Shown here: one piece after another, positions 23,601 through 64,000 of the stretch | Layout of the letters: every line of letters begins with the position of its first letter | Position numbering within the stretch: the first letter of the stretch is position 1 | Origin: Ophelia neglecta | Lineage: Eukaryota | NCBI GenBank assembly: GCA_965285935.1 | Contig: OZ260664.1 | Location: 64,790,001-64,854,000 of the forward strand | Reading direction: 5' to 3' | DNA: 64,000 nt | Position numbers: made by a program

Positions 23601-26600
23601 TGGAATAGGCATATCTTATGTATTGGCTACTGACAGGAAGTCATATTCAATGAATCCAGTGATAACATTTAATTTGACCTTGACCTATTTTCAAGGTCAT
23701 GTGAAGGAAATTAAGTTGTGCATTGACGTGCCATATGATGATGTACAAGTAGAACTGTTGCATTTACTACAGGACATAACTTTGGGTAACACTGTATAGT
23801 TTGCTTGGTCGTCTGTTATTGTATAAAAAATCAGGTTTTGGGACAGACAGTTTGTTATTTTCCTGTGTTTCCAGCTGCCCTTGATATACATTGAGGAACT
23901 TGCATGAATGTTTATAATATCCATTTCATTGCAACCAAAGAGCCATGTACAAAGTACTCTTAACTCTCTCCTTTATACTGTAATTTTTCTTACAGTTACA
24001 GTTGAGTCATTTATGAGACATTTTCAAAAAGATCAAGGCCTTCAATGATCAATGCTGTTATGCTTCAGTGTTGGGAAATTTCAGTTGTTGCTGGAAAAGG
24101 CCAAGACTTCATAAAATTGCAGAAAAATTAAAATGATTAAATACTTGGCCACAAAAATTTATGGGCACTGTAGTACTCATGGTATTATGAAAAACAGGAT
24201 TGGAGAAAGATTAAAAGTTTGAGGTAATTGTGGCAATATCAGAGCACCATTTGTCTGTGTCAGCTCCTCCCAATTATAGCAGCTGATTCTGATGACTGTC
24301 CTTCATATAGTTAAGTATTAAATGTATATTGACAGCCACAATTTACATGATGTAATTACTATTAAAAAAACAGTTATACTCATGTTTAGTACTATGAACA
24401 TATTTTGAAAGTCTTGAAGCTAAGCTGCACAATTATACATGTATCAGATTATTTCTATCGTATAACCATACGAATGTATACTAGTGAAGCACTTTTCCAT
24501 TTAAATCTGTGTCACCATGCAGGTTTATCCTAGAAAATCATTGTCTCATTATTTATTTGCTCGTTGGAAGTTTACCAAATCTACCCACTACTGAAAATGT
24601 TTGAACTACCAGGGGTAATGTTTTCTCAGTCTTGTCATTGCTGCTAAGCTATGTAATGTTTGCCATAAACAGAGATCTGTGCCACTCTGCACCGCATATA
24701 ACACCATCCACTGCCAAATTACACAAATCAGGCCAGTACGGCCACCCACCTATTTCCTTCCCCCCACCAAAATGAACCCATGTCCCCTCTACTACTACAG
24801 ATGAGTACAAATCACATGACAGTTCACTGTACATGCTTACTCAAGCGAGCAACCACAACTTCCTGTTTTTTCCTTGAAGGAGATGGGCTCCTACAATACT
24901 AATGACAGAGTGCATGCTTGATGTTAACTGACCCTTTGGCCAGTGTCAACACTTGGTGGAGACAAAAAATAAGCTCATCTTCCACCTGATAGACCTGACC
25001 ATCTTCCATTGTCACAATTTGTGTCCTTTTCTTCCGTTATAGTCACCTTATGCTGAGAAATTTCATATTAATTTCATCGGACAGGCAATAGTAAATTTAG
25101 TATGTATGAATGTTAATGGCAGTCACTATACTGTGGCACTGTACTGTTAAGGATAGCCAGACATTTTTTGAATGGGTGGGTTTAATGAATGGGTGTGAAT
25201 ATATGTTTCCTGCTGGTAGATGAACTTTTAACTTATCAATCTGTGGTTAAACAATGTTTCAATTGGACACAGTCAATAGCCTACTTAGTTCATTTTCTGT
25301 TTTCAACTCTTTTTTGGTCAAAAGCTACTGGTAAGCCCCTCTAATAAGGGAAACGATTGCTAATAAGTTTGGTATTATTTTACATTGATCTTGACATTGC
25401 TGTATTGTCATGCTATATATGCATAAACAAAATGAAAATAGTACCGGTATCAAGTGATTCAAAATTGGCCCAACATTACTGTTTATGAACAATGTATTAA
25501 GTTATGAAATGCAACCAGTCCTGCTTCTAACTATTGCTGTATAACGAGAAAAATGTGTTTCCGCTCTTTATTAATGTACCATTCTCAGTCATAATCCTTG
25601 TTCCCAGAAATAAAATATTGTCAATTAATTATGCAGATGAAATAATGCATTGTTATAGCAGATTTCCTTTGTAATGTGAGTATTTAATAAGTTAATCATC
25701 CCTCTTTTGGTTCCATCTTTCATGCTTACAGTTTCTGAAATTTTCTGCTACAGGTGTATACTAGCAACTGAAGAAGAAACTAAACTTTGAAAATACATGA
25801 CTAAACTACTTCTGAATGTAAATGTGGTCATTTGCGCATGAAAGGTGACCAATTTCCATAATTTCCAATGAAACATATTAAATGCAAATTCATGTAAAAA
25901 CATACAAGATATATTTTCAATATCAGAAAATACAGATTGAAAAAATGTACTCATTGGTATGATTTTGTGTAATATAGTTTTAGTTATAAGAAATATTGAC
26001 CACTTACACTAAATAAATATGTAAATATTTTTGTAAGCTCCACTTTATTTGGTTACTTCAGTGCTAATTGAATGTATTTATTGTGTTTTTTAAAAAGTAA
26101 TTGTTACCTTAGGTTGATTTTATATGTATAAATTTTGTTGAACATGAATAATTAAGTATAAGGGCAATGCACGCTCTTCGTGCTGACAAGGTGATTCTTC
26201 CTCTTTCCAGGGTTTCACCAATTTAGGGAGTGCGAGCAACGAGGCAGGAGGAAGCCACTCAGTCGGAGCTGTCAACATTACGACAACGCCGGCAACGTCC
26301 ATTATGACTTCGCCCATCATCAAGCCCACCCCAAGCCATTGGTTCACTGCAGAGATTCAGCAAATGATGTGAGTTGATTGGCTGATTGCCTTCTTTGCAT
26401 ATCGTGCCCAGAGAGTGGCAAAAATTGCCCATATTTGGCACTCTCTAGGAGCACACACCATACTGTAGATTGATTCCAATTTCTGTTTCCCATAGCTTCT
26501 GCAAATGCTGTTATCCAAATTGCATTCCACATTTGGCTGTATTAATGTGAATACTTACTGTAAAATCATATTTTGAACAGATTTGCATGGCTTCACCTTC

Positions 26601-62600: not shown

Positions 62601-64000
62601 TTTGTATGTATGTTCAAAATTGCATAATAGACCATGATTAGGAAACCTAAGACATTTAGTCTAGAACAGAATGTGACTGCAGATAACTATAATTAATCCT
62701 TTTTGTTGCAGGCATGGTCTAGGTGATTGTAGAAAGCCTCTGGCTGAATCTGCAACCCTCATTGAAGAAATCGTCCACCACCAAATGAAGAAATTGGTAA
62801 TTATTACCAGGGTATTTGAAAACATAAGCAAAACCAGCTTCAGATTTCAATATATAAAAATGTTATTATAATAGTGGGTCTGCCTTTCTAAAATGAACTG
62901 AACTTACTTTTTTCATGTGTATTACCAGTTTAGATTAAACGTGCGATCTCACTACTTAACAGTTATACCAGGCAGAGGAAGTTGGACGACTGAGAAATGC
63001 CAGATTTCTAGGAATAGAGGACTTTTTGTTTCTCTTACGAAGAGACAAGGTTTGCATTTAACATGGTTGTCTACTAGCTTTTAGGTAATTTTAAAGTGGT
63101 ATTTTGTTAATTTTGGTTGCATGCCATATTTCTCTGATTCACTGCAGGAAAGCCATGATCCAAAAATAAATGAATTCCCTTTCTTAGTTGCTGCCACAAC
63201 ATTTTTGCTGCCATTTATTTTCTGAGGTTGCAACAGGGTCTGGGGACACTGAGGTTTTGCAACCATTGGTTAGCTGCAATAGGTTGATGTACTATTAGGG
63301 CAATGTCAGGATAATTCTTGTTCCATATTCTTCTGAATTTATACATTTATATTTATAATAGTTAAAACTATCTATATCCTTTCCCCAAACAGGCAACCTT
63401 TTACCATCTTTTTCTGTCAACTGGCCAACTGATCCAATTATACCACTTAAATGTTTTTGCCAAGATATTGAAACATTGTTGTCTTAGCTGTCAGTAATTG
63501 TCCACTTGTCATACACAGGGGTATTAAATAGTTATTTGCAAATCAATGTAAACACCAGACATATAGGACTGGCTATTTACTGTCAAGTGTGTTTTGTAGG
63601 TGAAGCTTAGGAGATTAATAAGATACATGAGTTTGAAAGATGTGAAGACTGCAGCGTATAAAGCTTCCCATATAGAGGAAGAAGAAGGCTCGGAACAAGG
63701 TGAGTTAGCTGATTATCACAGTCACTGTAGCAAAAATGGCGGCATGGAATCTACACAGGTATACCGGTAAGCGTCTGGAACAAACTCTGGAATAAGATTT
63801 ATCTGGAACATGCTGTACATCTGCTTGTTGTGCTCCAGAATTAAATAAATTGTATTGAAAGATGGTCCCAATACATTGGCATCACACACAGATGAGACGA
63901 TGCCAAAATTATGTAAAAGGTATGAAAATGATATAAACTTACATGTCATGCATCTTGTCCTGTAACAAGCCATCTCTCTGACTTCTGTGTAGATTCTCCT

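What the first reader, a model, noticed from the sequence alone, without database searches (positions are those of the whole stretch)
26369..62711. Giant 36.3-kb Supt3h intron at the same position as the vertebrate intron that contains the RUNX2 distal promoter
Seen: the phase-2 intron splits the second Met of EIQQM-M and is 36,343 nt, whereas the next two introns are 166 and 550 nt. From recall of the human gene, SUPT3H has its very large intron at the same ATG AT|G position, followed by 85- and 87-nt exons as here, and it contains RUNX2 P1 and enhancers. Inference: intron size is maintained by Runx regulatory content, which would explain why the linkage is not broken.
Basis: partly seen in the sequence, partly recalled or inferred. 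Interest (0 to 1): 0.7.

Follow-up and report, generated by a model that had tools for sequence, protein, structure and literature searches.

The report
Long conserved-position intron in invertebrate Supt3h
A real 36-kb intron in the housekeeping gene Supt3h of a spiralian invertebrate sits beside the Runx gene, an already known gene pairing, but nothing in the sequence shows that Runx control elements keep the intron large.

Summary
A GT..AG, phase-2 intron of 36,343 nt (26369-62711) splits the second Met of EIQQM|M, followed by 85- and 87-nt exons and introns of 166 and 550 nt. The flanking exons are Supt3h. Both boundaries of the 85-nt exon recur in every relative that reads through them (15 of 15; 13 of 13).

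Two corrections:
- The exon at 26.3 kb is probably exon 2. A likely first exon lies at 20470-20553, in a CpG-rich block, so this is intron 2.
- The only recognisable Runx promoter lies at about 17.7 kb, outside the intron. It has a TATA box, three Runx motifs and the conserved MHL start. It is head-to-head with Supt3h, about 2.7 kb away.

The intron shows no Runx-motif excess, no promoter-like CpG block, no recognisable gene or Runx exon, and few identifiable repeats. Conservation, chromatin state and the human gene structure could not be tested.

Runx-Supt3h linkage and the "bystander gene" explanation are already published. Verdict: an ordinary new example of a known arrangement; the claim that regulatory content maintains intron size remains open. 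The window is not taken for human.

The parts
26369..62711 (+). The intron in question: Supt3h phase-2 intron, 36,343 nt, GTGAGT...TTGCAG; probably intron 2
   Evidence: Orthologues read MM directly followed by HG. AT skew -0.053 (z -8.0), 17 of 18 2-kb bins negative. CpG o/e 0.251.
26211..26368 (+).
   Evidence: Open frame 26187-26369. tblastn with P0126, P0140, P0132 and P0138 extends upstream of 26304. Alignment.
20470..20553 (+). Proposed first coding exon of Supt3h (28 codons, basic K-rich N-terminus, donor AAG|GTAAGG, phase 0). Inferred.
   Evidence: Sequence. Aligns to the N-termini of P0126, P0132, P0138 and P0140; tblastn alone is weak (E 10). Lies in the CpG-rich block. The stretch after it has intron-type AT skew.
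20379..20415 (+). Promoter-type motifs 55-90 nt upstream of the proposed Supt3h ATG: GCATGCGC (NRF1-like core) and CGGAAGTG (ETS-like). Motif names are recalled.
   Evidence: GCATGCGC occurs once in the window; CGGAAGTG occurs 3 times, 2 of them at the two 5' ends.
20554..26210 (+). Proposed Supt3h intron 1 (5,657 nt)
   Evidence: Donor, acceptor. AT skew -0.059 (z -3.5), the same as the large intron.
16751..21750 (.). CpG-rich block (CpG o/e 0.6 or more in every 500-bp bin) over the 5' ends of both Runx and Supt3h
   Evidence: The rest of the window is 0.25-0.30.
17272..17635 (-). Runx first coding exon: conserved MHL... start and the N-terminal three quarters of the Runt domain
   Evidence: Pfam Runt E 7.4e-47. 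84% identity to chiton and brachiopod Runx. MHL start shared by 26 of the 120 hits listed.
17720..17803 (-). Runx promoter: ETS-like CGGAAGTG 17803-17796, TATATAAA 17762-17755, Runx motifs AACCACA 17751-17745 and 17726-17720 (a third at 17641-17635 abuts the ATG)
   Evidence: The only cluster of 4 TGYGGT within 150 bp in the window.
15559..15672 (-). [quoted passage not shown]
   Evidence: Pfam Runt positions 93-129, E 1.2e-16; tblastn.
1505..1750 (-). Runx exon after the Runt domain (boundaries approximate)
   Evidence: tblastn with P0001, P0003, P0017.
62712..62796 (+). Supt3h 85-nt exon (G of the split Met plus 28 codons)
62963..63049 (+). Supt3h 87-nt exon
63600..63699 (+). Supt3h 100-nt exon
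40018..40365 (+). Open frame resembling the C-terminal tail of a non-LTR retrotransposon ORF2 (a lead only); coincides with a CpG-rich patch at 39751-40500
   Evidence: Atlas score 0.97; a zf-RVT family on 16% of one cluster; recognition value below the tool's benchmark. No Pfam hit. CpG.
59879..60628 (.). Minisatellite, 49-bp unit x 15.3, 97% matches
57423..58018 (.). About 90-bp tandem or dispersed repeat units; adjacent CpG-rich patch at 56751-57500
49318..49595 (.). TACATG/TGTACC-type simple tandem array
34943..35029 (.). The only cluster of 3 TGYGGT motifs in the intron, inside a GC-rich, CpG-poor stretch with no promoter features

Best explanation
This is the long second intron of the housekeeping gene Supt3h in a spiralian invertebrate. 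It lies at an ancient, fixed phase-2 position just before the histone-fold exons.

Supt3h and the single Runx gene lie head-to-head. The Runx TATA promoter is at about 17.76 kb on the - strand. The proposed Supt3h start is at 20.47 kb on the + strand. They are about 2.7 kb apart inside one 5-kb CpG-rich, presumably unmethylated, block.

The intron is transcribed as part of Supt3h along its whole length. This is inferred from uniform strand asymmetry and CpG depletion. It contains no recognisable gene, RNA family, Runx exon or Runx promoter.

Most likely mechanism: the close divergent promoters tie the two genes together. In addition, as published for vertebrates, Supt3h acts as a 'bystander' whose introns may carry some Runx enhancers.

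The intron's length is best read as ordinary intron growth, not a selected size.

Shown: boundaries, phase, exon identity, conservation of the exon boundaries, Runx promoter position, composition.
Inferred: Supt3h exon 1, methylation state, any enhancer content.
For: - Boundaries and sizes.
- Supt3h identity exon by exon.
- Boundary conservation: 15 of 15 and 13 of 13.
- Runx exon and conserved MHL start.
- TATA box plus Runx motifs.
- CpG-rich block 16751-21750, against 0.25 in the intron.
- Nothing recognisable in the intron: 0 Rfam families, 0 tRNAs; 0 Pfam families in 56 of the 58 frames of 70 aa or more.
- Published context: synteny from sponge to human, including Capitella (PMC2674455); SUPT3H called a bystander gene of RUNX2 (PMC5585340); contact between P1 and the Supt3h promoter (PMC4176362). 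Passages only.
Against: - Exon 1 rests on weak, low-complexity similarity (tblastn E 10) and on composition. There are no transcript data, and two searches for a close relative's N-terminus found nothing.
- Methylation and transcription are inferred from base composition only.
- Only about 8% of the intron (2,879 nt) is self-similar repeat, and only one transposon-like frame was seen. 'Ordinary growth by repeats' is therefore not demonstrated either.
- Five of the 120 listed Runx relatives carry another N-terminus joined before DLNG. A distal Runx first exon may therefore exist in spiralians and could lie in this intron.
Confidence: 0.6

Rival explanations
1. One reading: the intron is the equivalent of the vertebrate SUPT3H intron that houses RUNX2 P1 and enhancers, and its size is held up by Runx regulatory content, which also prevents the linkage from breaking.
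For: - The intron position and the 85-nt exon are conserved.
- The split Met corresponds to human residue 34, next to the aligned stretch 36-59.
- Gnathostome genes are interlocked, with P1 about 38 kb from the Supt3h promoter (PMC4176362, PMC533870).
- SUPT3H is described as a RUNX2 bystander gene within one regulatory block (PMC5585340).
- Alternative Runx N-termini in 5 of 120 listed relatives point to a second promoter in some spiralians.
Against: - The recognisable Runx promoter is outside the intron, on the far side of the Supt3h 5' end.
- There is no Runx-motif excess in the intron (29 against 32.3; 7 of 29 TGTGGTT sites in 57% of the window).
- There is no promoter-like CpG block in the intron.
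- No homologue of any alternative Runx N-terminus was found in the window.
- Strand asymmetry is undiluted along the intron.
- The position of the human intron was not verified.
Confidence: 0.15
2. Purely neutral: the intron is long only because of transposon and repeat accumulation and carries nothing functional; the linkage persists because of the shared divergent promoter alone.
For: - A retrotransposon-tail-like frame.
- Three tandem arrays.
- Three short hairpin elements.
- CpG depletion like the rest of the gene bodies.
- No motif excess.
- 5' ends 2.7 kb apart.
Against: - Identifiable repeats cover only about 8% of the intron.
- No reverse transcriptase or transposase domain was found in 56 frames.
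- No repeat library for this genome was available, so most of the intron is unclassified.
- In vertebrates, regulatory elements do lie in SUPT3H (PMC5585340).
Confidence: 0.22
3. Artefact: the two exons are not spliced to each other (misassembly, or a nearer missed exon), so the 36-kb intron is not real.
For: There are no transcript data for this window.
Against: - The window has no N.
- Splice sites are consensus and in matching phase.
- 26322-26369 is the only match in the window to the orthologues' WFxxEIQxMM stretch.
- Orthologues join MM directly to HG.
Confidence: 0.03

Closest known systems
Gnathostome RUNX2-SUPT3H 'interlocked' gene pair (PMC533870, PMC4176362, PMC4236176, PMC3974841)
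   Same: Same two genes, opposite orientation, 5' ends together. There is a large early Supt3h intron at a protein position corresponding to human residue 34. The Runx promoter carries Runx motifs in its 5'UTR region.
   Different: Here the recognisable Runx promoter and first coding exon lie outside Supt3h, 2.7 kb upstream of its proposed start. Interlocking is therefore not shown. There is one Runx promoter adjoining the Runt-domain exon, in place of P1 and P2 separated by the Supt3h promoter.
Invertebrate Runt-Supt3h adjacency (amphioxus, Nematostella, Amphimedon, Capitella; PMC2674455, PMC4236176)
   Same: A single Runx gene next to Supt3h in a non-vertebrate. The window adds another spiralian example.
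   Different: The passages read give no intron positions or sizes. The head-to-head spacing, the shared CpG-rich block and the 36-kb intron are described here from the window.
Genomic regulatory block with a bystander gene (RUNX2 with SUPT3H in PMC5585340)
   Same: A developmental transcription factor sits beside a ubiquitously used gene with long introns. The linkage is conserved across phyla.
   Different: The defining arrays of conserved non-coding elements could not be looked for here. The only proxies available (motif density, CpG) are negative for this intron.

Membership tests
Supt3h / SPT3 (TFIID-18kDa histone-fold protein) | Sequence homology of the N-terminal histone-fold region | tested here: met
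   Tested exon by exon. PDB human SUPT3H residues 36-59 (E 0.0011) and 63-91 (E 0.0015). Pfam TFIID-18kDa E 2.2e-4 and 2.4e-5, each below the 27-bit cut-off because the exons are 28-29 aa. 20 of 21 library hits are Supt3h-like. The joined model was not searched.
Conserved Supt3h phase-2 intron at M|M-HG | Intron at the same codon and phase in other species | tested here: met
   15 of 15 relatives that read through the boundary have R (AGG) in place of the split Met. 13 of 13 have V (GTN) after residue 28.
Conserved Supt3h phase-2 intron at M|M-HG | Same intron, and the largest one, in human or vertebrate SUPT3H, followed by 85- and 87-nt exons | not testable with these tools
No vertebrate gene structure is on hand. 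The only indirect hints are gapless protein alignments over exactly these spans and an 'out-of-frame exon 3' in mouse (PMC9371916, passage).
Interlocked Runx-Supt3h (gnathostome type) | Genes adjacent, opposite strands, 5' ends together | tested here: met
   Runx on the - strand with ATG at 17635; Supt3h on the + strand from 20470 (or 26304).
Interlocked Runx-Supt3h (gnathostome type) | A Runx first exon and promoter inside a Supt3h intron | tested here: inconclusive
   None was found. There is no tblastn match to alternative N-termini, no TATA-plus-Runx-site cluster and no promoter-like CpG block in the intron. Short 5' exons cannot be excluded without RNA data. 5 of 120 listed relatives have alternative N-termini.
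Interlocked Runx-Supt3h (gnathostome type) | Supt3h promoter inside Runx intron 1 | tested here: not met
   This holds for the promoter that can be recognised. The Runx TATA at 17755-17762 and the ATG at 17635 lie in one exon, upstream of and outside Supt3h.
Genomic regulatory block / bystander gene | Arrays of conserved non-coding elements of the target gene inside the bystander's introns | not testable with these tools
Genomic regulatory block / bystander gene | Linkage conserved over long evolutionary distance | not tested
   Taken from the literature: sponge to human, including a polychaete (PMC2674455, PMC4236176; passages).

The most novel reading that the evidence does not exclude
Spiralian Runx genes, like vertebrate ones, have a second, distal promoter. 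Its short first exon would lie on the - strand inside this 36-kb Supt3h intron and splice to the AG just before ...ELNG (17621-17618). The interlocked two-promoter Runx-Supt3h architecture would then predate the split between protostomes and deuterostomes, and the intron at M|M would be its conserved housing. The lead is that 5 of the 120 listed Runx relatives (Lingula X2, Crassostrea X3, Gigantopelta X2, P0001, P0034) replace the MHL start with another N-terminus joined exactly before DLNG. No such exon was found in the window.
Probability: 0.12. Interest if true: 0.6.

Novelty: new member of a known kind. Interest (0 to 1): 0.25.

Why it matters
Runx-Supt3h is one of the oldest known gene linkages in animals. 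Why it persists is usually explained by shared or interleaved regulation.

This window gives a spiralian example with base-level anatomy: divergent 5' ends 2.7 kb apart in one CpG-rich block, a Runx promoter with its own binding motifs, and a fixed-position long intron. It offers a simpler sufficient cause for the linkage (the divergent promoter).

It also shows that the 'P1 in the intron' picture should not be carried over from vertebrates without transcript data.

The result does not open a new question. The regulatory-block explanation and the synteny are already in print.

Tried and rejected
Searches with no useful result:
The query was too short.
The unspliced frames round the 85-nt exon and the EIQQMM exon gave no hit at E 10 or better (4 and 19 candidates).

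Intron content:
- Pfam gave 0 families at E 0.01 or better on 56 of the 58 frames of 70 aa or more. The two dropped frames overlap the 49.3-49.6 kb tandem array.
- A relaxed scan of 10 of these frames gave only one chance-level hit (Vac14_Fab1_bd, E 0.19).
- The 188 frames of 45-69 aa were listed but not scanned.
- The second Atlas query (34860-35183) gave no usable hit.
- Rfam and tRNA scans found 0.
- tblastn with the reverse-transcriptase-like N-terminus of the chimeric Solemya model P0136 found nothing below E 2 in the window.
- tblastn with alternative Runx N-termini found no match.

Discarded: the sigma-70 promoter and terminator scan is a bacterial model. It was a mistaken choice and is ignored.

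Papers: PMC9371916, PMC6140783 and PMC8556228 (passages) do not say which SUPT3H intron holds RUNX2 P1.

Not available or not seen:
These include CNE Table S2 of PMC3974841 and the gene-model files of PMC2674455, which may bear on the claim.

Left out: the joined (spliced) Supt3h model was not translated or searched.
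Full report
**What the window is**

The window has no N and 38% G+C, with CpG o/e of 0.31. A - strand frame at 17210-17650 encodes the N-terminal part of a Runt domain (Pfam Runt E 7.4e-47). A search with that exon alone found 2,589 proteins at E 0.001 or better among 2,830 candidates. Of the 120 listed, the best named ones are Runx proteins of a chiton (Liolophura, 84%), a scallop (Argopecten, 83%) and a brachiopod (Lingula, 84% over 96% of the query). Two unnamed sequences reach 91% and 88%. No hit is identical.

I take the window for a spiralian (lophotrochozoan) invertebrate, not for human. 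Human SUPT3H matches the Supt3h exons only at E of about 1e-3.

**The observation**

- The donor is ATG AT|GTGAGT at 26368|26369.
- The acceptor is TTTTTGTTGCAG|G at 62711|62712.
- It is 36,343 nt long and phase 2, inside the second Met codon.
- Downstream lie an 85-nt exon, a 166-nt intron, an 87-nt exon, a 550-nt intron and a 100-nt exon.

I searched the model exon by exon. The joined, spliced protein was not built or searched.
- The 85-nt exon matches human SUPT3H residues 36-59 (E 0.0011).
- The 87-nt exon matches residues 63-91 end to end (E 0.0015). An unrelated leucine-rich-repeat protein scored higher there through many weak repeats.
- Both exons match Pfam TFIID-18kDa (E 2.2e-4 and 2.4e-5). 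Both fall below the curated cut-off because they are so short.

A full HMMER scan of 1.84 billion representatives with a 30-codon genomic stretch over the 85-nt exon gave 21 proteins at E 0.001 or better. Twenty are Supt3h-like and one (P0122) is an unrelated repeat protein.

Local tblastn with seven of these places the orthologues' W[FY]xxEIQxMM stretch at 26322-26369 and nowhere else in the window (P0126 E 0.005, P0140 E 0.004, P0132 E 0.083, P0138 E 0.91). The four fully spliced orthologues run MM straight into HG, so no coding exon is hidden in the intron.

**Conservation of the intron position**

Thirteen of the 20 relatives are unspliced frames predicted from genomic contigs. Two more (Solemya velum P0136, Capitella teleta P0137) are gene models that read in from the intron.
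- In all 15, the residue in front of HG/YG is R. That is AGG: the acceptor AG plus the G of the split ATG.
- In all 13 that also read out at the 3' side, exactly 28 residues are followed by V (GTN, the donor).

The phase-2 intron and the 85-nt exon are therefore fixed among these relatives. Ten of the unnamed ones were looked up and none carries an organism name. I did not pursue where they came from.

No tool here gives vertebrate gene structure. The protein alignments are merely consistent with it.

**A correction to the gene model**

- The frame is open from 26187, and a strong acceptor, cctctttccag|G, lies at 26210|26211.
- Orthologues have 56-84 residues before the second Met and start with a basic M-x-K-x-K stretch.
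- At 20470-20553 the + strand reads an ATG, 28 codons rich in K and S, and AAG|GTAAGG. This is phase 0, matching the phase-0 acceptor.
- It aligns to the orthologues' N-termini. By tblastn alone the similarity is weak (E 10).
- About 60-90 nt upstream lie GCATGCGC (the only copy in the window) and CGGAAGTG (3 copies in the window). From recall these are NRF1-like and ETS-like motifs of housekeeping promoters.

Two composition signals agree with this model.
- Every 500-bp bin from 16751 to 21750 has CpG o/e of 0.6 or more, while 22001-26368 has 0.30 and the large intron 0.25.
- The AT skew of 20554-26210 is -0.059 (z -3.5). That is the same as the large intron (-0.053, z -8.0; 17 of 18 2-kb bins negative). 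For comparison, 17763-20469 is at 0.001 and the Runx introns are at +0.059 and +0.076.

I therefore read Supt3h as exon 1 20470-20553, intron 1 of 5,657 nt, exon 2 26211-26368, and the 36-kb intron as intron 2. I put about 0.7 on this. It needs transcript data, and two searches for a close relative's N-terminus found nothing.

**Where the Runx promoter is**

On the - strand, TATATAAA lies at 17762-17755. It is followed by AACCACA at 17751-17745 and 17726-17720, and a third copy ends on the A of the ATG at 17635. CGGAAGTG lies at 17803-17796.

This is the only place in the window with four TGYGGT motifs within 150 bp. The start MHL..(D/E)LNG is shared by 26 of the 120 listed relatives.

The recognisable Runx promoter is thus about 2.7 kb from the proposed Supt3h start, divergent from it, and outside the 36-kb intron. 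The other Runx exons lie at 15672-15559 and about 1750-1505, giving introns of about 1.6 and 13.8 kb.

**What is in the intron**

- There are no Rfam families and no tRNAs.
- No Pfam family was found in 56 of its 58 frames of 70 aa or more. The two dropped frames overlap a tandem array.
- A relaxed scan of ten frames gave nothing credible.
- One frame (40018-40365) looks like the tail of a non-LTR retrotransposon by the Atlas. This is a lead only, with recognition below the tool's benchmark.
- Tandem arrays lie at 49318-49595, 57.4-58.0 kb and 59879-60628.
- There are three short hairpin elements.
- Self-similar sequence covers 2,879 of 36,343 nt.

Without a repeat library for this genome, most of the intron is unclassified.

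Proxies for Runx regulation are negative.
- TGTGGTT occurs 29 times in the window against 16.5 expected (0 of 100 shuffles reach 29). Only 7 of the 29 lie in the intron, which is 57% of the window.
- TGYGGT is doubled in the Runx gene body (36 against 17.0 simulated; 0 of 200 simulations reach it). It is not raised in the intron (29 against 32.3; 145 of 200 reach it).
- The one triple cluster in the intron (34943-35029) lies in a GC-rich, CpG-poor stretch with no promoter features.
- Only two small CpG-rich patches exist in the intron. One lies on the retrotransposon-like frame and one beside a repeat array.
- tblastn with the alternative N-termini of relatives found no exon.

**What is known**

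From passages read, not whole papers:
- Runx-Supt3h linkage is reported from a demosponge, a sea anemone, amphioxus and the polychaete Capitella to vertebrates (PMC2674455, PMC4236176, PMC3974841).
- In gnathostomes the two genes are interlocked (PMC533870, PMC4236176).
- The mouse Supt3h promoter lies in Runx2 intron 1, about 38 kb from P1, and contacts it (PMC4176362).
- SUPT3H is called the bystander gene of RUNX2 within one regulatory block (PMC5585340).
- Paired Runx sites in the P1 5'UTR are described as a gnathostome feature that lamprey lacks (PMC4236176, PMC3974841).

Two literature searches for Supt3h with 'microsynteny' or 'bystander gene' returned only PMC5585340 and its preprint. 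Supplements were closed.

**Verdict**

The intron is real, and its position is ancient.

In this window the idea finds no support from the proxies I could compute. The close divergent promoters already explain the linkage.

Whether the intron holds Runx enhancers, or a distal Runx exon as the alternative N-termini of five relatives hint, needs transcripts, chromatin data and genome alignments.

Noticed in passing
window 17635-17803 (- strand): The invertebrate Runx promoter has a TATA box followed by two AACCACA Runx motifs 25 nt apart, plus a third at the ATG. This resembles the paired Runx sites that the literature describes for gnathostome P1 5'UTRs and reports as absent in lamprey. It hints that Runx autoregulation through promoter-proximal sites is older than vertebrates.
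   Followed up: partly
window 16751-21750: One continuous 5-kb block of undepleted CpG (o/e 0.6-1.15) covers both the Runx and the proposed Supt3h 5' ends. Everything else in the window is at 0.25-0.30, which is unusually strong and uniform CpG depletion for an invertebrate.
   Followed up: partly
   Followed up: yes
window 1-17271: Runx motifs (TGYGGT) are twice as frequent as simulated in the Runx gene body (36 against 17.0), with five TGTGGTT sites between 10685 and 11366. These are candidate autoregulatory elements inside Runx's own 13.8-kb intron.
   Followed up: partly
window 17618-17621 (- strand); proteins P0001, P0017, P0019, P0021, P0034: Five of the 120 listed Runx relatives carry a different N-terminus joined exactly before DLNG. 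This suggests an alternative upstream first exon in some spiralians. The window has AG dinucleotides at the matching spot.
   Followed up: partly
window 13001-14000 and 12797-12828: A CpG-rich patch (o/e up to 0.93) lies inside the large Runx intron, next to a perfect 32-nt palindrome. No frame of note was seen there.
   Followed up: no
proteins P0136 (Solemya velum) and P0137 (Capitella teleta): Both public gene models lack the EIQxMM exon and read in from the intron. The Solemya model fuses a reverse-transcriptase-like N-terminus to the 85-nt exon. This may mean the same intron is long and transposon-bearing there as well.
   Followed up: no
window 59879-60628: A very regular 49-bp x 15 minisatellite (97% matches) lies 2 kb before the acceptor of the large intron, in the most C-rich part of the window (GC skew -0.196).
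   Followed up: no
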